Of a stretch of 64,000 nt of DNA, positions 39,701 to 48,507 are shown piece by piece. Below the pieces are notes generated by a model, which saw only the letters and a list, made by a program, of their open reading frames with translations, searched no databases and was not told where the DNA came from. Source of the DNA: Promethearchaeota archaeon (GTDB lineage Archaea > Asgardarchaeota > Lokiarchaeia > Sigyniarchaeales > SOKP01); assembly GCA_048939995.1 (NCBI GenBank), contig JBHLOY010000006.1, forward strand, positions 149,622-213,621. Direction: 5' to 3'. A program made the position numbers and the translations under genes. Each line of letters opens with the position of its first letter. Position 1 is the stretch's first letter.

Positions 39701-40831
39701 TTAATTTTTTTTCCTTAGAAAGTGTGAATAGATAATTAAATAATTCTTTACGCTAATTATTCTAGGATTTCTTCTATAGGTAGATGATATAGGAGCACTA
39801 CACCTTGAACAGAGATTGGATGTTTGCATCCAATCTTTAAATTCATCCGCATGTGCGGGATATCTGCAGTTTGGGCATATTACTATCCCTCTCCCTCTAT
39901 CATCCGGAAGTTTTGGTAATTTAAAACAAAAAATACATTTAAAATCTTCTACTGAGAGATATGATGCTTTTGGCTTATATCTCGATAAATCACGAGCTTT
40001 AACTCTTTTAGTTTGAGTACTCGTTTTTGTCTTAGTTCTAGTTGTTTTTCTAACGGTTGTTGGTGTTCTTCTTATAGTTGTACGTGTAGTAGTTCTAGTT
40101 AAGGGATTAGGTCTGGATGATGTATTTCGCCTTCTAGATGAATTTAAAGTGGATGGAGAAGTTAATGAATTCAGTTGTCTCGTACGTTGTGTGATATATT
40201 CACGAGTTAATGTTGGTAAGGATTGTTTCGAACCAACAAATCCAAAAATAATAAGTATTAATAAGGTTGTAATAAGTAGTATCAAAAGATTAAGGTTTAA
40301 AGAAAAATGAAGCGGGATTAGGAGAGAATTATAAAAAACATTAACCGAATAAAAACCTATCCAATATATTATAATAAAAAGAAGAACTATGAAAGCTAAG
40401 ATATAACCTAATCTTCTCGCATTTATTGATTTTGTACCAAAATATATTACATTAAATTTCTTAAAACAACGATAGAGTGAATAAGAACCGTACAATACAT
40501 ATGGAAATCCAAAAATAATACTCCACCAACTAAAATATAAACTTGAACCCTCAATTAAGTTTTCACCTAACACGCCAGTAAAGTAGCCCCAGATAGAATA
40601 AAAAATCCCAATAAATAATGGAATAATTACAAAAAATGCAGTATTGTGGGGAGAATTAAATTCTCTATGACGTTTTACATTTTCTAAAATCTTAAACGTA
40701 ATAATGATCCATAAACCAATCAGTGGCCAACTAAAAAAAATATTTAAAGAGAAGGTGATAAGGAAACCATGGATTATCCCGATTATTAAAAATATAATAA
40801 CTACAATTAATAAAAACTTATTTTTAACCAC
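39701..40831 (-). CDS. Multi-pass membrane protein with C-terminal RING-variant domain (putative E3 ligase)
   Basis: About 6 TM segments, Thr/Arg/Ser-rich linker, CIFC-x16-CPNC-x4-H-x2-E-x3-W-x6-CSRC; last gene of the Ubl operon. Confidence 0.7.
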   Translation of the reverse strand: MVKNKFLLIVVIIFLIIGIIHGFLITFSLNIFFSWPLIGLWIIITFKILENVKRHREFNSPHNTAFFVIIPLFIGIFYSIWGYFTGVLGENLIEGSSLYFSWWSIIFGFPYVLYGSYSLYRCFKKFNVIYFGTKSINARRLGYILAFIVLLFIIIYWIGFYSVNVFYNSLLIPLHFSLNLNLLILLITTLLILIIFGFVGSKQSLPTLTREYITQRTRQLNSLTSPSTLNSSRRRNTSSRPNPLTRTTTRTTIRRTPTTVRKTTRTKTKTSTQTKRVKARDLSRYKPKASYLSVEDFKCIFCFKLPKLPDDRGRGIVICPNCRYPAHADEFKDWMQTSNLCSRCSAPISSTYRRNPRIISVKNYLIIYSHFLRKKN

Positions 40832-40863
40832 AGTTTAACAATCACCAATTATAAAATAAATCA

Positions 40864-41694
40864 TTATTCATCATATTCTAAATAAACCGGGTTCCCTTGA
40901 ATTATTGGATTCATAAACTCCAAAATTTCAGGGAGCATCCTAATATCCAATGAGCCTTTAATACCATACACTAATGGATACCACGTTTTTGTTTTCAAAT
41001 CAGCATGGTAAATCTCAAAACCAGCTGATGTTCCATCAATAAGGTATGGGTCAATAACCAGTGCTACAGCTTTATCCCAAAGGGTTTGATATCTCGATTG
41101 AGTACCAATATCCTCATTACTCATAAAACAACCATAAGATGGATGACTGTGTGCCCATCCACAAATAAATAACTTCTCTTTTTTAATATCTCGAAATGCT
41201 CTTGCATAATTCTTATAATCTTTTATTTCAGCATACACAGCTGTTCCATGCCCCATCGGATAATAATCTTCAATATGTAAAATGCTTTTTTGATTGTCTA
41301 ATTTACCTGCAAGTAATCCTATTACTTCTACCCAATTCTTTCTTGGAATTTTTGAATTGGCATATTTAAGTGCATGGCTTGCCACCTTTAATATTGCTTT
41401 AACTGAAATGTATACTTCTGCTTCGAGGTCATTCACAGGAATAACTTTTGGTGCTTCTTTCGTTATTACTTCGATAGGTGTTTCAGTAGTTGAATGTTTT
41501 ATAGATTGTTTCCCAAGTGTACTTTTAGACATCATATTACTAATTTCATTTACTAATTCTTTTTCTTCTAATTTCAATTCTTCATAGATTTCATTAAGTA
41601 ACTCTTTTTTAATTATTTCCTTAATTTTACCCTTTATTTCTTCTTTGATAGATTCTCTGTTCAAGTTTTTTTCACTCATTTTACTGTTCACCAT
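40864..41694 (-). CDS. JAMM/MPN+ isopeptidase (Rpn11/Csn5-like)
   Basis: EVIGLL, GWAHSHPSYGCFMSNEDIGTQ, ALVIDP. Confidence 0.9.
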   Translation of the reverse strand: MVNSKMSEKNLNRESIKEEIKGKIKEIIKKELLNEIYEELKLEEKELVNEISNMMSKSTLGKQSIKHSTTETPIEVITKEAPKVIPVNDLEAEVYISVKAILKVASHALKYANSKIPRKNWVEVIGLLAGKLDNQKSILHIEDYYPMGHGTAVYAEIKDYKNYARAFRDIKKEKLFICGWAHSHPSYGCFMSNEDIGTQSRYQTLWDKAVALVIDPYLIDGTSAGFEIYHADLKTKTWYPLVYGIKGSLDIRMLPEILEFMNPIIQGNPVYLEYDE

Positions 41695-42215
41695 TTCCTA
41701 TTAGCATACTTTTTCACTAAATTTGTAACTTTTTTCTCAAAAAATTTTGGATCTTTCATCATTTCGATAGCTGCTTTTTTATTAAAAACGTCTGTTGGAT
41801 TTACAAATTTGCCTCGTGTATTTAACATAGCAATTATTGCCTGAACGACCGTAACAGCTGTTTTCGAAGGACTCCATCCACCTTTTTGACCAATTAGCGA
41901 GGGATCTACCAACGCTAAGCAAATATTCCTCTGACCTTTATATTCATTTGGTTTTGGCCAAAAATTTGGGTGCCAAATAGGAGTATGCATTCTTACGAAA
42001 GGTGGTTGTTTTGGATATTGAGCAGGGAATTTCATTTCTAATTTAAAAAGGCCACCTGAATAGGCAGTACCTTTAGGACCTTTAATTGTTATTGCTAAGT
42101 GATCAATACTTTTTTTTTTAGGATTAAATGGAACTAACTGCACAAGATTCCCCTCTTTAAGCATCTTTTTTAATCCTGCAAAATCTCGGGAAATACGACT
42201 ACTTCTTATACTCAT
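41688..42215 (-). CDS. Ubiquitin-conjugating enzyme E2
   Basis: GPKGTAYSGGLF, FPAQYPKQPP, IWHPN, catalytic Cys in NICL, WSPS. Confidence 0.92.
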   Translation of the reverse strand: MSIRSSRISRDFAGLKKMLKEGNLVQLVPFNPKKKSIDHLAITIKGPKGTAYSGGLFKLEMKFPAQYPKQPPFVRMHTPIWHPNFWPKPNEYKGQRNICLALVDPSLIGQKGGWSPSKTAVTVVQAIIAMLNTRGKFVNPTDVFNKKAAIEMMKDPKFFEKKVTNLVKKYANRKW

Positions 42216-42317
42216 ATTCTCAATCCTTTTAGTTTCTTTAATTTCATATTAATAATTTTCTCTTTTATAAGTATCTATTTCTATAAATGTTATAAAAAAT
42301 ACAATTTAATTATGAAC

Positions 42318-43550
42318 TTATTTTAATTTTAGAGTAACATAAATTTCTCCGCCCTTAAATCCTGCAACAGTAATAAATTCATAATTTCTTAAACCATTTT
42401 CAATTGGATTCTTTTCTAAATCTATCACTTTGATATCATTAAAATCCAATAAAGTTAGTATAGGTTCAAAATCACTTTCCAATTCAAATCCGTTTTTCTG
42501 TAATGTTTTAATTATATTTAAGCATGGTGATTGAGTTTTCATTCTTATTGACACTCGTCGAACGTTTTTACCACATTGAGAACATTCTAGATTCCTTGGT
42601 TTTTCAATATGGTAGAATTTCATTGTCATTGCATTAAATATCACATAATTCTTAATTGGTTCTCCTAATCCTTTATGACCTTTATTCCAATGAAGGATCT
42701 TTACAGCTTCATGAGATTGTAAAGCAGAAATAACTGCATTTATAGTTATTATCCCAGGATCATGTCTATCAAGAATTTTCACTATATCATCTTCAGTAAA
42801 TTCGGGTAAGAAATCATGTTTAATTACTAATTCATTTGCAACCTTTTGAATAAACTTTATCTCATTTAGATCTTTTGGATTTGGATCTCTATCAAATTTT
42901 TCTTTAAAGGCCATGTCTCCCTTAAAAACGCAATGAATTCTCTTTCGAGGTATTCCAACTACAGTACATGCTGCCATCTCATCGCTTTCTCCAATAGGTA
43001 AAGGATTACATTCATAACAAGCATTCTGATATGGGAAGATTGTATATATATGACCATGATAGCCAGATACTCCACCATCTACCAAGGGTTTTCTAAATCT
43101 TATACATTGAGCATTTAAGTTTAAGCGTGCATTCATTGAATCAAGACCTCCAATAACAACATCAGCCATTTGATAAACTAAAGGATCTAATCGCTCAAGT
43201 GAAGTGTGATATCCCTTAACAATTATATTAGGATTTATTTCTGTTAATTTTTTAGCAGCTGCAATTGCTTTTGGTGCTCCAATCTTTACCCCTGTAAAAA
43301 GGATTTGTCGGTTTAAGTTGGAATGCTCTATGATATCTAAATCCACTAGATCTAGATGACCGACACCCAACATAGCTAAGTTCTTAGCAATTTCACACCC
43401 TAAGCCTCCTACACCCGCAATTAGTATTCTTGAGTTCTTTACTAATTTCTGAGACCATCCTTCAAGTCGAAATTGGCGATCATACAAACCTCTTTCTTCA
43501 GCTGACATATTTTTGTCAAAAAACTCTGATTTTTTATCCATTAATATCAC
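42318..43550 (-). CDS. Ubiquitin-like activating enzyme E1 (Uba3/Uba2-like)
   Basis: YDRQ, GVGGLGCEIAKNL, SNLNRQ, CYEC, catalytic ACTVVGIPR...HC, CSQC. Confidence 0.9.
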   Translation of the reverse strand: MILMDKKSEFFDKNMSAEERGLYDRQFRLEGWSQKLVKNSRILIAGVGGLGCEIAKNLAMLGVGHLDLVDLDIIEHSNLNRQILFTGVKIGAPKAIAAAKKLTEINPNIIVKGYHTSLERLDPLVYQMADVVIGGLDSMNARLNLNAQCIRFRKPLVDGGVSGYHGHIYTIFPYQNACYECNPLPIGESDEMAACTVVGIPRKRIHCVFKGDMAFKEKFDRDPNPKDLNEIKFIQKVANELVIKHDFLPEFTEDDIVKILDRHDPGIITINAVISALQSHEAVKILHWNKGHKGLGEPIKNYVIFNAMTMKFYHIEKPRNLECSQCGKNVRRVSIRMKTQSPCLNIIKTLQKNGFELESDFEPILTLLDFNDIKVIDLEKNPIENGLRNYEFITVAGFKGGEIYVTLKLK

Positions 43551-43621
43551 CTTTAATAAATAAAAGAAAAAAAGGGGCTAATTGCCCTTAATTTATATTT
43601 TATGAAGAAAAATATAAAAAT

Positions 43622-43948
43622 TTACCCGGCAGTACTTGCTGGGATTAAAAGAATATCGTCACCATCACTTAGATTATAGTCTCCTAATTGACTGTCTTCT
43701 TCCATAGTTACACCACCAGATGATAAATGAAATTCATCAGGATCAAGTCCGAATAGATTACCTAAGGTTTGTTTGACATCATTTACACGATTAGCATCAT
43801 TCACGGTTAACTTTTCCTTCTTTTCACCAGGTCCGATAGTTGACATAAAGTATAAAGTTAATTTTTTTCCTGTCGCAGGGGTTTTGGATATTGGTGTTTT
43901 AGATTTAACCGGTTCTAAATCTTCATCAAAATCATCTTTAAAACTCAT
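43622..43948 (-). CDS. Ubiquitin-like protein 1 (C-terminus STAG)
   Basis: Beta-grasp pattern VNDVKQTL...FHLSSGGVTMEEDSQLGDYNLSDGDDILLIP; directly upstream of E1. Confidence 0.85.
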   Translation of the reverse strand: MSFKDDFDEDLEPVKSKTPISKTPATGKKLTLYFMSTIGPGEKKEKLTVNDANRVNDVKQTLGNLFGLDPDEFHLSSGGVTMEEDSQLGDYNLSDGDDILLIPASTAG

Positions 43949-44222
43949 TTATATCACTCCTTTTTTATTTTTTTAATTGGTTTATTTTTTTTATTTAACT
44001 TAATAAAATTGCATTAAAATGATATTATAAAACCAATTGGAATGATTTTGAATTTTTTTTATCATCTTCTTAAGAAAAAATAGGATTAAGTTAGTATCCT
44101 TTTAAGATATATCTATAAATTAAATGAATCTCTAATAATATATATAAGCTTGAAAAGATCGTTTTAGAAAGAAGATTTGATTGTAAAAATCAAAACTAAA
44201 AACAAAATTAAAATTAAACTTC

Positions 44223-44897
44223 ATGAATTCTCCAGATAATGTTGATTCCATTGTTCTCGAGTTAGTAAAAGAATATCTAAATAAGAAGGTCTTCTTTTCA
44301 TTAGAAGATATTATTACTTTTATTAATTATAGATCAAGAGCTTATCCCTACTTAAATAGAAATATGATAGAGAAAATATTAAAAAAACTAATCAAAAAAC
44401 GAATATTGATTCCTGGAACAAAATTAATGAAGAATAATATTATTGAACATCCTATAAGAAATGAAATATACAATTATATTAAGACAAATCCATCAAATAT
44501 TAATGAGATCATGAAAGCTATAAATATTGGAGGTAATCAAACTCTATGGCATTTATCATGCTTAGAAAAATTCCAATTTACACGATCAAGAAAGATTGAT
44601 AATCAACGAATTGTTTTTGAATATGATTCAAATCCTGAATTAGATGAACTTTATTATTATCTTAACCAAGATATCGTAAAGGAAATAATTGAATTGATGA
44701 AGATTGAAAATAAAAAATTGAAGTTGACAAAAATCGCAAACGACTTGAAAAAGAACTATAACACAGTTAAAAAATACCTTAAGATTTTAACTAATTTAAA
44801 AATAATAAAAGCTGAGAAGGAAAATAAAAGAGTCTTATTTAAAATAGATTTAGAAGAATACCGTAATATTATCAAATTAATAAATAAATCAGAATGA
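44223..44897 (+). CDS. Tandem winged-helix DNA-binding protein
   Basis: RNEIYNYIKTNP...WHLSCLEKF and LTKIANDLKKNYNTVKKYL HTH patterns. Confidence 0.7.
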   Translation: MNSPDNVDSIVLELVKEYLNKKVFFSLEDIITFINYRSRAYPYLNRNMIEKILKKLIKKRILIPGTKLMKNNIIEHPIRNEIYNYIKTNPSNINEIMKAINIGGNQTLWHLSCLEKFQFTRSRKIDNQRIVFEYDSNPELDELYYYLNQDIVKEIIELMKIENKKLKLTKIANDLKKNYNTVKKYLKILTNLKIIKAEKENKRVLFKIDLEEYRNIIKLINKSE

Positions 44898-44974
44898 AAT
44901 TTCAAATTTATACCAATTGAATTTAAATTTAAAATAATCAATTAGAAATTTAGAAAATAGTAAAAGAAAAAACT

Positions 44975-45772
44975 ATGATAAAAAGAACTAGAGTTTTAAG
45001 TATTATTGCTCTTTATACTATTGTCATACTAATTTATATAATGCTTTTGTGGTTAAAAATAGAATATTTCCCTTTTTATCTTTTTTTTACTATTGGTAGT
45101 GTAGCAGCATTATCTACAGGTACTTTTTATATTATAAAAAAATCTAAATTTATCCCTAAAAAAAGGATAACAAGGCCTAAATATATTTCTAAGCAAAAAT
45201 CGTTAAACAAGAATGATAAAAATACACTTGTTGAGGATTATTTTGATGCAATGCCATTAATCGATAAATATGCAAATTCAATAGAATCATATAATGAAAT
45301 ACCTTCAATGGATGATTACATCTTCTCAGTTTTTAAGTCAGAAGAATTGGAGAAAATTAATTGTTTAAATCTTTCTAAAATGGATAAAATCTTTTTCTTA
45401 AGGGAAATGCTGTATTTTTCTCCACAAGAAAGATCACAACTAATAGATGATATGTTGGAAAGTAAAGATAATCCTGATGAACAAATTATTTTCACTCCAC
45501 CTAAAATAAATATTGGCATGCAAGATAGAATAAGAGTCTATGCAAGATCCTTAATAGAACCTGGTGAAAAAACTAAAATAATTATTATTGAGACTTCTGA
45601 ATTTGTAAATGAAATTAAGGAGAAGCTTGGAGTTCTATTTAATTACAATATTGATAATTTTGTACTATCATCTGGAGGTATAATATTACAGGAGAATATA
45701 AAAATAGTTGACTATAACTTAGATGATGATGATGAGATAGCTCTAATTCCTTCTAGAAAAGAAAAAAAATGA
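44975..45772 (+). CDS. Membrane-anchored protein with C-terminal Ubl domain lacking a terminal Gly
   Basis: Two N-terminal TM helices; C-terminal domain aligns with the flanking Ubls (EPGEKTK, FVLSSGG, DYNLDDDDEIALIP) and ends SRKEKK. Confidence 0.75.
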   Translation: MIKRTRVLSIIALYTIVILIYIMLLWLKIEYFPFYLFFTIGSVAALSTGTFYIIKKSKFIPKKRITRPKYISKQKSLNKNDKNTLVEDYFDAMPLIDKYANSIESYNEIPSMDDYIFSVFKSEELEKINCLNLSKMDKIFFLREMLYFSPQERSQLIDDMLESKDNPDEQIIFTPPKINIGMQDRIRVYARSLIEPGEKTKIIIIETSEFVNEIKEKLGVLFNYNIDNFVLSSGGIILQENIKIVDYNLDDDDEIALIPSRKEKK

Positions 45773-45817
45773 TAATTTGACTTTCAATTAACCCTCTATT
45801 TATAGAATGCTATAACT

Positions 45818-46195
45818 CTAACCCGCAGTACTTGCTGGAATCAATAAAATATCATCTCCCTCAGCTACATTATATTCCCCTAATGCGGCATCCTCTTCCA
45901 TAGTGACTCCTCCAGAAGATAAATGAAAATCAGCAGGATCTAGACCAAATAAATTTGCTACGGTCTTCTTTATTTCTCCTACTTTATTTCCTGTATAAAC
46001 TAAAAGCTTTTGCTTTTTCTCTCCGGGGCCTATAGTAGATAAAAAGAATACTGAAATCTTTTTTCCTTCAACAATTGGTTTTACGGCGGGAGTTTTGGTT
46101 TTAACTTCTTCCGTTGGGGTTTTTGTAGAAGGTTCGTCTAAATCTTCGTCTAAATCTTCATCAAAATCTTCATCAAATTCTTCATCAAAACCCAT
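45818..46195 (-). CDS. Ubiquitin-like protein 2 (paralog, C-terminus STAG)
   Basis: Very similar to Ubl1 (STIGPGEKK, FHLSSGGVTMEED, GDDILLIPASTAG); SD AGGTGAT at 46201-46207. Confidence 0.85.
   Translation of the reverse strand: MGFDEEFDEDFDEDLDEDLDEPSTKTPTEEVKTKTPAVKPIVEGKKISVFFLSTIGPGEKKQKLLVYTGNKVGEIKKTVANLFGLDPADFHLSSGGVTMEEDAALGEYNVAEGDDILLIPASTAG
46133..46190. repeat. About 5 copies of a 12-bp coding tandem repeat encoding (F/L)DE(D/E)
   Basis: ttcgtctaaatc x2, ttcatcaaaatc, ttcatcaaattc, ttcatcaaaa. Confidence 0.8.
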
Positions 46196-46371: not shown

Positions 46372-47454
46372 ATGAAAGAAAATAAAATACCTAAATATCA
46401 AATTCGAGAAAAAACACCGGAAGAAGCTTTAGAAATTGTTCCAGATACAAAATTATTAAAACAAATAAAACAAGAAAGAATAAAGCTAAAGAATGAAAAA
46501 GTTGAGTGGGAGAAATTAGTTGAAAAACTTGAAGGTTATAAAGATAACATAAAAGATCTTGAAAAGAAAAGAAAGGAAAAGGAACTTGAAGTCAGAGATC
46601 TTTTAGATCAACATGAAAATTTACAAAATCAATTACAAAAAATGAAAAATGAAATAAAACAACATAAAAATGATTTAAAGTTAAAAGAAAGAGAATTAGA
46701 CCGAAAGAATGCTGAATTAAGTAATTTAAAAGCGGAATTAGAAAGAGATAAAGATGATTTCAGAAAGGAAAAAGAAAGAACAGACGCTCGCATTAAACAA
46801 ATTAAAACTAAAATACCTGGAATGGAAAGACGGGAGGAGGCATTAGAGAGGACCATTGAAAAATTAGAGAATGAATTACTTGGTTTGAGAAATGAAATAA
46901 AAACATTAACCAGAGAAAGAGAGAATTTAAAAAAAGAAATATCTGAAATGAAAAGAGAAATAACGGATGAAAAAAATAGGATTAATGATGACAGAAGAAA
47001 ATTAAATGATGAAAAAGAAAAACTTCGCTACAAAAGAAAAGATCTAAAAGATAAAAGTCGTGAAATAGAAAAGAAAAAATCCGATTTAGAAAAGTTTAGA
47101 GATAAAACTGAAAATGATGTAAAAAATTTGGAACGCAAGAAACGAGAACATGAAGCAAGATTAAATGAGTTAAATAAAAAAGTCCCAAAAGCAGAAAACA
47201 CTTACTTTTCATTAGAACGTAAGATTCGTGAATTGGAGGATAAATATAAAAGATTAAATAATGATCTGAAGCAATTAGAAAAAGAAAAATCAAATCTTAC
47301 CAATGAAAAGGATATGATTCGAAGAGAAAGGGAAAAGTTAGAAAGGGATAAAGAGAGATTTCTTCGAGAAAAAAAGGAATTTGAGATTGAATTACGAAAA
47401 ATTAAAGAGATACCAAAGTATAAAATAAAATCAAAAACTCCTTCAAAATATTAA
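46372..47454 (+). CDS. Long coiled-coil protein
   Basis: 360 aa, almost entirely E/K/R/L heptads; similar motif at both termini. Confidence 0.75.
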   Translation: MKENKIPKYQIREKTPEEALEIVPDTKLLKQIKQERIKLKNEKVEWEKLVEKLEGYKDNIKDLEKKRKEKELEVRDLLDQHENLQNQLQKMKNEIKQHKNDLKLKERELDRKNAELSNLKAELERDKDDFRKEKERTDARIKQIKTKIPGMERREEALERTIEKLENELLGLRNEIKTLTRERENLKKEISEMKREITDEKNRINDDRRKLNDEKEKLRYKRKDLKDKSREIEKKKSDLEKFRDKTENDVKNLERKKREHEARLNELNKKVPKAENTYFSLERKIRELEDKYKRLNNDLKQLEKEKSNLTNEKDMIRREREKLERDKERFLREKKEFEIELRKIKEIPKYKIKSKTPSKY

Positions 47455-47475: not shown

Positions 47476-48507
47476 ATGAAAATTCCAAAAGGAATTGAAG
47501 GAGACTATATTGAAACAAAAAATAATAATCTTTTTTTTGATGTAAAAGGAATTTATCATCCTCATGATCGAAAAATATGCTTTATTCGGTTTTATCCCAG
47601 TTCTGATGGTGACCGCATCAAAAGCGGAAAAAAATATAAAAAAGTTTATGATTTGAATGAAAGATACTCATTTTTAAGAGAAAACTATCCAAAATATCTC
47701 TTTTTTTCTAAGCAGTTTGACATCATGCTTCAAGGCGTTAGAAATGAGGAAATAAAAAGAATTTATACTCCACTTGAATACTATCAAGCACTAAATCAGA
47801 GATCCACAACAAATCACCTTGAAAGCTGTTCAAAAGAATTGTGTAAATTGTTTATTGAAAAAGGAGACTTTCCAAAGAATTCAATTGGTATAACAGGTTC
47901 TCAAATGATTGGACTATGTAAAGAACATTCTGATATTGATTTAATAATATATGGAACTGAAATAAGTCGCAATTTTCAGGAAAAACTAGCAACTATTTTA
48001 AGTACTAGTAAGTACTGTAGGAAATTCTCTCAGCAAGAATATCTCACTCATTATGAGTGGAGAGTAGGAGGTTCAAATATACCATTTGATAAGTTTTTAA
48101 AATATGAAAGACGAAAATTGCATCAGGGTATGTATAAGGGATTTGAATTCTTTATTAGATACCTTAAAAGTCCTAGTGATTGGAAAGGAACCTATTATGA
48201 TTTTTTATATAAGAATATGGGTAGAATAGAACTTGAAGCAAAAATTGTTGATGATGCGAATGGGATTTTTACACCTTGTTCATATAAAATAAAGCTATTA
48301 AAAATTAATAAAACTGATATAGACGAAATTAATCAAGATCAAATTAATGAAGTATCTTCTTACAGAGGAAGATTCTGTGAGCAAGCTATTAAAGGAGAGA
48401 TAGTTCTAGTCACAGGTAAATTGGAAAAGGTCATTTTTAGAAGGAACAAAGAATATTATAGAGTCTTACTGACGGATCAGTCACAAGATACAATGATTTT
48501 AAAATAG
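47476..48507 (+). CDS. Archaeal nucleotidyltransferase-domain protein (COG1665-like)
   Basis: IGITGSQMIG...SDIDLIIYG Pol-beta NTase motif; VKGIYHP; C-terminal VTGKLE. Confidence 0.75.
   Translation: MKIPKGIEGDYIETKNNNLFFDVKGIYHPHDRKICFIRFYPSSDGDRIKSGKKYKKVYDLNERYSFLRENYPKYLFFSKQFDIMLQGVRNEEIKRIYTPLEYYQALNQRSTTNHLESCSKELCKLFIEKGDFPKNSIGITGSQMIGLCKEHSDIDLIIYGTEISRNFQEKLATILSTSKYCRKFSQQEYLTHYEWRVGGSNIPFDKFLKYERRKLHQGMYKGFEFFIRYLKSPSDWKGTYYDFLYKNMGRIELEAKIVDDANGIFTPCSYKIKLLKINKTDIDEINQDQINEVSSYRGRFCEQAIKGEIVLVTGKLEKVIFRRNKEYYRVLLTDQSQDTMILK

What the first reader, a model, noticed from the sequence alone, without database searches (positions are those of the whole stretch)
39701..46195. Self-contained ubiquitin-like conjugation locus with membrane components
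Seen: co-oriented Ubl1 > E1 > E2 > JAMM > TM-RING, with E2 and JAMM overlapping, plus a second Ubl, a membrane-tethered Ubl-domain protein and a wHTH gene. The E1 catalytic region (ACTVVGIPRKRIHC) resembles eukaryotic Uba3/Uba2 rather than MoeB/ThiF. Established: Ub-E1-E2-RING-JAMM operons occur in Caldiarchaeum and Asgard archaea. Inference: this version targets the membrane and uses a distinct Ubl family, so it may be a parallel modifier system acting in membrane-protein quality control or sorting.
Basis: partly seen in the sequence, partly recalled or inferred. Interest (0 to 1): 0.75.

Follow-up and report, generated by a model that had tools for sequence, protein, structure and literature searches.

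The report
Asgard membrane ubiquitin-like tagging operon
An Asgard archaeon carries a complete, widely conserved second ubiquitin-type tagging system whose tag ends in Ala-Gly, whose probable ligase sits in the membrane, and whose likely target is a neighbouring rod-shaped protein that shares a short lysine motif with the tag itself.

Summary
Real and intact. Ubl-E1-E2-JAMM-TM/RING lie co-oriented with catalytic residues conserved. All five genes occur in 34 of 40 distant loci from Loki-, Hel-, Borr-, Heimdall- and Hodarchaeal genomes, including cultured Ca. L. ossiferum; not found in MK-D1. The E2 is the orthologue of published Lokiarch_29330, so the cluster itself is known. It is a parallel system: the tag always ends Ala-Gly, the genome has separate Gly-Gly tags and a second JAMM-E1-E2 cluster, and its E1 forms its own clade. 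Corrections: the E2/JAMM overlap is a start-calling artefact; the wHTH, TM-Ubl and extra Ubl are a cassette of one family; nothing supports membrane-protein quality control. Its two ends, the Ubl tails, and unrelated Lys/Pro-rich proteins beside the operon in Heimdallarchaeia share a hydrophobic-x-x-Lys-x-Pro motif. Best reading: SUMO-like, motif-directed conjugation and chain formation at the membrane; all biochemistry is inferred. This scan reported the operon and the motif before on other genomes.

The parts
39701..40831 (-). Probable E3: six predicted membrane helices (res 4-197), a disordered Arg/Ser/Thr-rich linker, then a RING/U-box-fold zinc finger with ligands C298, C301, C318, C321, H326, E329, C340, C343 and invariant W333
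   Evidence: Model pLDDT 84; finger matches U-box and RING ligases at Z 6-8, rmsd 3-5 A over about 70-75 residues; ligands invariant in 29 sequences, Glu in at least 90%; weak predicted binding to the E2
40864..41679 (-). JAMM isopeptidase of the Rpn11 type; probable start 41679
   Evidence: Pfam JAB E 5e-13; best solved relatives human Rpn11 (60 bits) and Caldiarchaeum Rpn11 (59), then CSN5 (49); start
41688..42215 (-). E2 conjugating enzyme, HPN motif 82-84 and Cys99; orthologue of Lokiarch_29330 and of L. ossiferum NEF87_002994
   Evidence: Pfam UQ_con E 3e-25; invariant in 16 sequences across classes
42318..43541 (-). Single-chain E1 with Uba2/Uba3-type catalytic Cys (195 in the 410-aa frame) and a probable C-terminal ubiquitin-fold domain; probable start 43541
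   Evidence: C-terminal domain: UBX hit E 8e-4, E2_bind/UAE_UbL lead 0.87; tree
43560..43589 (-). Short GC hairpin followed by a T-run between Ubl1 and E1; probable terminator or attenuator
   Evidence: Found by scan; present with stem variation in the 29 related loci printed; function inferred
43622..43948 (-). Ubl1: acidic N-terminus, two Lys-Thr-Pro motif copies, ubiquitin fold, mature end STAG
   Evidence: Model pLDDT 93; top Foldseek match Caldiarchaeum ubiquitin, 22% identity; ends TAG in 73 of 73 close and 46 of 46 distant free Ubls scored, many with variable tails after the Gly
44223..44897 (+). Winged-helix regulator, divergent from Ubl1; part of a family-restricted cassette
   Evidence: Pfam HTH_5 E 2.5e-5; two close paralogues elsewhere in the genome; cassette layout
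44975..45772 (+). Membrane-anchored protein with a C-terminal copy of the Ubl domain that lacks the terminal Gly, so it cannot be conjugated by its end; part of the same cassette
   Evidence: Hydrophobic res 4-54; basic, Gly-free ends in all close loci; 94 of 134 genomes of the own family, 1 weak hit in 26 others of the class
45818..46195 (-). Ubl2: paralogue of Ubl1, ends STAG; occupies the ancestral position head to head with the coiled-coil gene
46372..47454 (+).
   Evidence: Beside the operon in Lokiarchaeia and Borrarchaeum; Lys14 and Pro16 invariant; motif counts; not found where the operon is not found

Best explanation
A dedicated, vertically inherited Asgard protein-conjugation system, separate from the Gly-Gly ubiquitin system. 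Steps: (1) JAMM trims any tail after the Ala-Gly end and later removes the tag (inferred from variable tails and from Caldiarchaeum Rpn11). (2) The E1, probably a homodimer, adenylates the tag and takes it on Cys195, then passes it to E2 Cys99 (residues shown; chemistry inferred). (3) The cytoplasmic RING-fold finger of the six-helix membrane protein binds the charged E2 and brings the reaction to the inner membrane face (fold shown, binding weakly predicted). (4) The acceptor is the Lys of a linear hydrophobic-x-x-Lys-x-Pro motif, in the manner of the SUMO consensus site. The motif lies at both ends of the neighbouring coiled-coil rod (Loki, Hel, Borr), throughout a Lys/Pro-rich neighbour (Heimdall, Hod), and in the tag's own N-terminal tail, which would allow chains (inferred). 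The outcome is most likely reversible tagging that tethers, cross-links or regulates a rod or disordered scaffold at the membrane. Confidence: protein-conjugation system about 0.85; membrane RING as its E3 about 0.7; motif Lys as acceptor about 0.5.
For: Catalytic residues intact and conserved. Five-gene core in 34 of 40 distant loci, the other six cut by contig ends, named as L. ossiferum, Helarchaeota, Borrarchaeum, Heimdallarchaeaceae and Hodarchaeales. Terminal Ala-Gly invariant while the residues after it vary freely, the pattern of a processed precursor (PMC5654768, PMC6043591). RING/U-box fold. E2-finger prediction 0.56 against best control 0.00, partner pLDDT at least 87, runs agree; the tool calls this weak (mark reached by 58 of 80 solved and 2 of 110 mismatched pairs, but at 0.60 or under by only 7 solved and both mismatches) and it may reflect likeness to solved E2-RING pairs. 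Where the Ubl cassette lies apart from E1/E2, a second copy of the finger follows the Ubl. Motif counts against composition-preserving shuffles: Ubls 45 vs 0.7, rods 56 vs 0.7, E1/E2/JAMM/RING 2 vs 6.5, Lys/Pro-rich neighbours 2-7 each vs 0.2-0.4. With the central position left free, Lys fills it in 48/50, 58/62 and 51/68 sites (background 8, 21, 23%), while the next residue varies among T, V, I, K, R. Rod gene not found in genomes where Ubl, E2 and TM-RING orthologues were not found.
Against: No biochemical data. The motif was defined from these same sequences and the genomes are related, so the counts are not a formal test. Genome-wide the motif's excess (155 vs 108) is no greater than with Arg, Gln or Asn at the centre, so there is no sign of a broad substrate set. 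The finger is atypical: Glu as sixth ligand, and no Arg/Lys directly after the last Cys where canonical RINGs have the linchpin. In H. repetitus rod and operon were removed by what looks like one deletion, so co-loss partly reflects adjacency. A conserved Lys-x-Pro could equally be a binding or acetylation site. No motif-bearing neighbour was seen in the short loci of one Heimdallarchaeial family or in one Helarchaeal locus.
Confidence: 0.5

Rival explanations
1. One reading: a conjugation system whose membrane E3 tags membrane or secretory proteins for degradation or sorting (ERAD-like or ESCRT-like).
For: Six-helix membrane protein with a cytoplasmic RING fold; a second 5-6 helix membrane gene follows it in Heimdall and Hod loci; Rpn11-like JAMM. 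A CDC48-N/VWA protein fused to this Ubl lies next to the operon in one family.
Against: No clear structural relative for the membrane domain. The published Loki Ubl that binds the UEV/ESCRT-I protein is the Gly-Gly protein Lokiarch_37670 (PMC9192718), whose orthologue lies elsewhere in this genome. The motif evidence points to soluble neighbours.
Confidence: 0.2
2. Conjugation is real, but the shared motif is a non-covalent docking or phosphorylation site; the rod is a scaffold or adaptor, and the true targets are unknown.
For: Thr-Pro follows the Lys in 42 of 48 Ubl sites and 39 of 58 rod sites, which resembles a proline-directed kinase site; rods with identical end motifs suit a bivalent linker.
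Against: Thr is freely replaced (13 of 51 sites in the Lys/Pro-rich proteins) while Lys is kept; no kinase or reader domain was seen in the conserved core.
Confidence: 0.18
3. The single-Gly tag is attached to an amino-headed membrane lipid, as ATG8 is, and its fusions carry cargo domains to the membrane.
For: Single terminal Gly, membrane-embedded E3, and fusions of this Ubl with an intact end to Roadblock, HerA-like ATPase and CDC48-N/VWA domains. ATG8 lipidation is from established knowledge.
Against: Tag fold is ubiquitin-type, the E2 is a canonical UBC with HPN, ATG7 scores far below Uba2; it does not explain the shared Lys motif.
Confidence: 0.06
4. An antiviral conjugation system like bacterial Bil or CBASS Cap2.
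For: Non-GG tags and Ubl fusions occur in such systems (own knowledge); presence is patchy (194 of 400 genomes).
Against: Fixed position among cofactor-biosynthesis genes in most of 80 close loci; E1 tree broadly follows the host groups; PADLOC gives only generic ThiF-domain hits.
Confidence: 0.04
5. Sulfur-carrier system (MoeB/ThiF/SAMP-like) serving the adjacent cofactor genes.
For: GTP cyclohydrolase and other cofactor genes flank the locus in the own family.
Against: E1 scores far below every MoeB, ThiF and UbaA cut-off; an E2 and a RING fold are present; flanking genes differ in other families while the core stays.
Confidence: 0.02

Closest known systems
Lokiarchaeum GC14_75 ubiquitin-modifier cluster around Lokiarch_29330
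   Same: The E2 active-site segment printed in PMC9192718 (supplement) differs from the window's by two residues over 41. That the cluster was reported in the 2015 Lokiarchaeum paper is from memory; the paper is not held.
   Different: In the papers I could search, no mention was found of the Ala-Gly tag, the membrane RING, the rod or the motif; the Loki 'ubiquitin' tested there is another protein, Lokiarch_37670.
Caldiarchaeum subterraneum Ub-E1-E2-srfp-Rpn11 operon and the Helarchaeal cascade (PMC5654768, PMC6043591, 10.1101/2023.07.25.550441)
   Same: Same five functions in one cluster; ubiquitin fold (top match CsUb); Rpn11-like JAMM; precursor tails.
   Different: Ala-Gly instead of Gly-Gly; acidic, motif-bearing N-terminal tail; six-helix membrane E3 with a Glu-containing finger instead of a small soluble RING-H2; separate E1 clade; no ESCRT genes seen in the core.
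Eukaryotic SUMO pathway
   Same: Works like it, by inference: flexible N-terminal tail with an acceptor-type Lys, short consensus motif; E1's best solved relative is UBA2.
   Different: E1 is not closer to Uba2 than to Uba1 or Uba3 in trees; Ubc9 ranks well below Cdc34/Ubc15-type E2s (45 vs 58 bits); tag profile is nearer ubiquitin than SUMO; JAMM rather than Ulp protease.
Eukaryotic UFM1 pathway
   Same: Single terminal Gly and a membrane-anchored ligase (established knowledge). PMC12962969 reports Ufm1 homologues in nine Asgard clades; I could not see which protein family that is.
   Different: No Pfam Ufm1 match for these tags; UBA5 scores 60 vs 130 bits for UBA2; E2 is a canonical UBC.
Eukaryotic multi-pass membrane RING ligases (Hrd1, Doa10/MARCH, Tul1)
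   Same: Several membrane helices plus a cytoplasmic RING-fold finger.
   Different: No clear fold match for the membrane part; finger ligand set differs.

Membership tests
Caldiarchaeum/Asgard ubiquitin operon | Modifier with ubiquitin-type beta-grasp fold | tested here: met
   Foldseek top hit CsUb E 2e-8, TM 0.85; Z 13-14, rmsd 1.2-2.7 A over about 77 residues to ubiquitin-family chains
Caldiarchaeum/Asgard ubiquitin operon | Mature C-terminal Gly-Gly | tested here: not met
   Ala-Gly in 73/73 Ubl1, 59/59 Ubl2 and 46/46 distant free Ubls scored
Caldiarchaeum/Asgard ubiquitin operon | E1 with thioester Cys and eukaryote-type catalytic region | tested here: met
   Cys195 aligns with the UBA2 catalytic Cys
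Caldiarchaeum/Asgard ubiquitin operon | E2 with HPN and catalytic Cys | tested here: met
   H82, P83, N84, C99 invariant
Caldiarchaeum/Asgard ubiquitin operon | Rpn11-like JAMM protease | tested here: met
   Best solved relatives human and Caldiarchaeum Rpn11
Caldiarchaeum/Asgard ubiquitin operon | Small soluble RING-H2 ligase (srfp) | tested here: not met
   Six-helix membrane protein with Cys4-His-Glu-Cys2 finger; RING/U-box fold is present
Caldiarchaeum/Asgard ubiquitin operon | ATP-dependent E1-E2-E3 transfer to Lys | not testable with these tools
   Needs reconstitution
SUMO pathway | E1 in or sister to the Uba2 clade | tested here: not met
   Uba1, Uba2 and Uba3 group together, with a Helarchaeal Gly-Gly-operon E1 as sister (99/98 and 100/98). 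Holding this E1 clade with all eukaryotic E1s was not rejected (p-AU 0.10)
SUMO pathway | Ubc9-type E2 | tested here: inconclusive
   Ubc9 44-46 bits, Cdc34/Ubc15 57-58 bits; no E2 tree was built
SUMO pathway | Consensus-motif Lys acceptor, also in the tag's tail | tested here: inconclusive
   A different motif with near-invariant Lys is shared by tag tails and neighbours; modification not shown
UFM1 pathway | Modifier of the Ufm1 family (PF03671) | tested here: inconclusive
   No PF03671 match in 24 tags, in the own genome or over cut-off in 400 phylum genomes; but the published Asgard Ufm1 homologues were found by structure, so this model may miss them
UFM1 pathway | UBA5-type E1 and UFC1-type E2 | tested here: not met
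   UBA5 60 bits vs UBA2 130; E2 is a canonical UQ_con with HPN
Hrd1/Doa10-type ERAD ligases | Membrane domain homologous to Hrd1 or Doa10 | tested here: inconclusive
   No membrane-domain match above the helical background
MoeB/ThiF/UbaA sulfur-carrier or SAMP system | E1 reaching the family cut-offs, no E2 | tested here: not met
   141 vs 266-275 for MoeB/ThiF, 105 vs 450 for UbaA; E2 adjacent

The most novel reading that the evidence does not exclude
Asgard archaea, including Hodarchaeales, run a second modifier system with SUMO-like logic that arose independently of SUMO: an Ala-Gly tag is placed by a membrane-embedded RING ligase on a linear hydrophobic-x-x-Lys-x-Pro consensus, builds chains through its own tail, and links coiled-coil rods or disordered Lys/Pro-rich proteins into a reversible membrane-proximal scaffold. 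This would name the first natural substrate class for a Lokiarchaeal cascade and show modifier diversification and membrane E3s before eukaryotes.
Probability: 0.35. Interest if true: 0.82.

Novelty: new variant of a known kind. Interest (0 to 1): 0.6.

Why it matters
Archaeal ubiquitin cascades have been reconstituted only with Gly-Gly tags and small soluble RINGs, on an artificial substrate or on UEV-Vps23 (PMC5654768; 10.1101/2023.07.25.550441). This locus predicts a second, older-than-eukaryote branch with its own tag end, a membrane ligase and a specific acceptor motif. It is directly testable: four components are small soluble proteins, the acceptor is a six-residue peptide, and cultured relatives form a natural comparison. 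Ca. L. ossiferum has the operon (NEF87_002994 to 002996 named), it was not found in P. syntrophicum MK-D1, and Ca. H. repetitus keeps only a relic. It does not appear to be the direct ancestor of SUMO, NEDD8 or ubiquitin activation, which limits the claim.

Tried and rejected
UFM1 ancestry, a resemblance recalled from memory: no PF03671 support and UFM1 was not among the top 50 fold matches; left open only because the family behind the published Asgard Ufm1 claim could not be identified. Proto-SUMO ancestry: not favoured by the E1 trees or the E2 ranking; the trees use about 220-230 columns, only two Uba3 rows, one canonical Asgard operon E1, eukaryotic rows labelled by motif and length, and omit fragments. 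E2/JAMM overlap: rejected. A genome-wide set of motif-bearing substrates: not supported by control motifs. Expression: no RNA holder was listed; L. ossiferum locus tags were not found in the held supplements of PMC9834061. The 2015 Lokiarchaeum paper is not held and a text search for its locus tags found nothing. Sigma-70 promoter scan gave no more sites than shuffles and does not suit archaea. No structural relative was found for the membrane domain in a search with the whole model; it was not folded alone. No E2 tree was built.


Full report
Observation. The eight genes are present as described and carry the expected Pfam domains. The window is part of a 3.75-Mb genome whose E2 has 83-95% identical relatives mostly labelled Promethearchaeota, so the host is a Lokiarchaeial Asgard archaeon. 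The E1 is closest among solved structures to SUMO E1 UBA2 (130 bits; Uba1 124, UBA3 115, MoeB 115, UBA5 60), its Cys195 aligns with the UBA2 catalytic Cys, and its last 85 residues probably form a ubiquitin-fold domain (leads only). The E2 keeps HPN and Cys99 in all 16 sequences aligned. The JAMM is Rpn11-like. One detail fails: the E2/JAMM overlap is a start-calling artefact, since 68 of 79 relatives have an ATG 8-10 nt after the E2 stop.

Conservation. Gene order is nearly invariant in 80 close loci. The Ubl family was found in 194 of 400 genomes of the phylum, in several classes, and not with this query in others. Of 40 loci drawn from distant families, 34 hold Ubl, E1, E2, JAMM and TM-RING; the other six end at contig borders. 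Exact look-ups name them as Ca. Lokiarchaeum ossiferum, Helarchaeota, Borrarchaeum, Heimdallarchaeaceae and Hodarchaeales. In Heimdallarchaeaceae the core is split into Ubl-E1 and E2-JAMM-RING halves a gene or two apart. Orthologues were not found in the closed genome of P. syntrophicum MK-D1. Ca. H. repetitus keeps a relic in which the decayed 3' ends of the rod gene and the RING gene abut.

Core and add-on. The wHTH, TM-Ubl and one Ubl copy form a cassette essentially limited to the host's family. In one genus the cassette lies apart from E1/E2 and is followed by a membrane-less copy of the finger. In the window it sits between the ancestral Ubl and E1. The TM-Ubl has lost the terminal Gly, so it cannot be conjugated by its end.

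The tag. It has a ubiquitin-type fold; the top Foldseek match is Caldiarchaeum ubiquitin at 22% identity. The end is Ala-Gly in every free copy scored; about a quarter to a half carry short, unrelated tails after the Gly, as expected of precursors trimmed by the JAMM (PMC5654768, PMC6043591). The genome also encodes a second JAMM-E1-E2 cluster with a Gly-Gly Ubl, a further Gly-Gly Ubl and a third eukaryote-type E1, so this is a parallel system.

The probable E3. The model has six helices in residues 4-197, a disordered linker and a finger. Conserved basic loops suggest both ends and the finger face the cytoplasm (inference). The finger matches RING and U-box ligases at Z 6-8, has the invariant Trp typical of E2-binding RINGs, but uses Glu as sixth ligand and lacks a basic residue right after the last Cys. 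A complex prediction with the E2 gave 0.56 against 0.00 for the best control; the tool rates this as weak and it may come from likeness to solved pairs. The membrane domain has no clear structural relative.

The substrate clue. The gene head to head with Ubl2 encodes a 360-aa coiled coil. It accompanies the operon across Lokiarchaeia and in Borrarchaeum and has the motif hydrophobic-x-x-Lys-x-Pro at both ends, often repeated. The same motif is in the Ubl N-terminal tail in all lineages. In Heimdallarchaeaceae and Hodarchaeales the rod is replaced by a Lys/Pro-rich protein without Pfam match that repeats the motif. Counts against shuffles are 45 vs 0.7 (Ubls), 56 vs 0.7 (rods) and 2 vs 6.5 (the four enzymes). 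With the centre left free, Lys fills it in 48/50, 58/62 and 51/68 sites, while the following residue varies. A near-invariant Lys in a short linear motif, shared by a modifier's tail and its neighbours, is what a SUMO-like acceptor consensus looks like. This is inference: the motif was defined after the fact, the genomes are kin, co-loss in H. repetitus may be one deletion, and the genome-wide excess is not specific to Lys.

Phylogeny. The E1s of this operon form one clade (100/99) split into a Loki-Hel-Borr and a Heimdall-Hod half, consistent with inheritance from an early Asgard ancestor. Eukaryotic Uba1, Uba2 and Uba3 group with a different E1 (99/98; 100/98 in a second run), which lies in a Helarchaeal Gly-Gly Ub-E1-E2-JAB operon. 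Forcing this operon's E1s together with the eukaryotic ones cost 16.5 log units but was not rejected (p-AU 0.10). The system is thus most likely a paralogous branch, not the ancestor of SUMO or NEDD8 activation.

Relation to what is known. The E2 is the orthologue of Lokiarch_29330 in the supplement of PMC9192718, which tested another protein, Lokiarch_37670, as the Loki ubiquitin; that paper notes a discrete ubiquitin gene region in Lokiarchaeota. From memory the cluster was reported in 2015. I found no paper on the Ala-Gly tag, the membrane RING or the motif in eight searches of a library that lacks most subscription journals. PMC12962969 reports Asgard Ufm1 homologues; my tests did not link this tag to Ufm1. 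Earlier notes of this scan describe the same operon and the same motif on other genomes; I reached the motif before reading those notes, and they are not independent support.

Verdict. Observation confirmed with one correction; interpretation partly supported. It works like a ubiquitin/SUMO-type cascade; it is not a member of the Gly-Gly, small-RING operon family in the strict sense, nor of the SUMO or UFM1 pathways. New variant of a known kind; interest 0.6.

Noticed in passing
own genome G000:C17:227620-229824 (L032): Second cluster JAMM-E1-E2 with a convergent 89-aa Ubl ending Gly-Gly plus a five-residue tail; upstream lie a small GTPase-like gene and a multi-pass membrane protein with a C-terminal zinc finger.
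   Followed up: partly
own genome G000:C6:24582-25505 (L035): Roadblock/longin-like domain fused to this Ubl family, with the Lys motif and an intact STAG end; could be conjugated whole.
   Followed up: no
L139:1910-3718, L140:11072-12814, L126:2213-3964, L121:10703-12658: Other fusions of this Ubl next to the operon: HerA-like ATPase-Ubl (Borrarchaeum), CDC48-N/VWA-Ubl, and zinc-ribbon/coiled-coil-Ubl proteins.
   Followed up: partly
L169:8107-8342 (Ca. Harpocratesius repetitus): Relic of the locus: the end of the rod gene and a stop-containing piece of the RING gene abut; the genes between them are gone.
   Followed up: yes
L143:3615-4202, L154:3971-4555, L150:6733-7317: A conserved ~195-aa, 5-6 helix membrane protein without a clear Pfam family follows the TM-RING gene in Heimdallarchaeaceae and Hodarchaeales; possible ligase partner.
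   Followed up: no
L182:6634-7302, L183:2712-3401: Membrane-less paralogue of the finger protein (Thr/Arg repeat linker plus finger) behind the Ubl of the free-standing wHTH/TM-Ubl cassette.
   Followed up: partly
own genome G000:C24:2682-4256; L173, L177: A third eukaryote-type E1 (524 aa). In relatives it lies beside a different E2 family, which was not found in this assembly.
   Followed up: partly
own genome G000:C32:164-661 (L033): 165-aa open frame with a UEV/RWD-like part followed by a RING-like finger, at a contig start; resembles the C-terminal part of Lokiarch_16100.
   Followed up: no
window 47476-48507: 343-aa gene conserved next to the rod gene in the own family; no NCBIfam match, function not established.
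   Followed up: no
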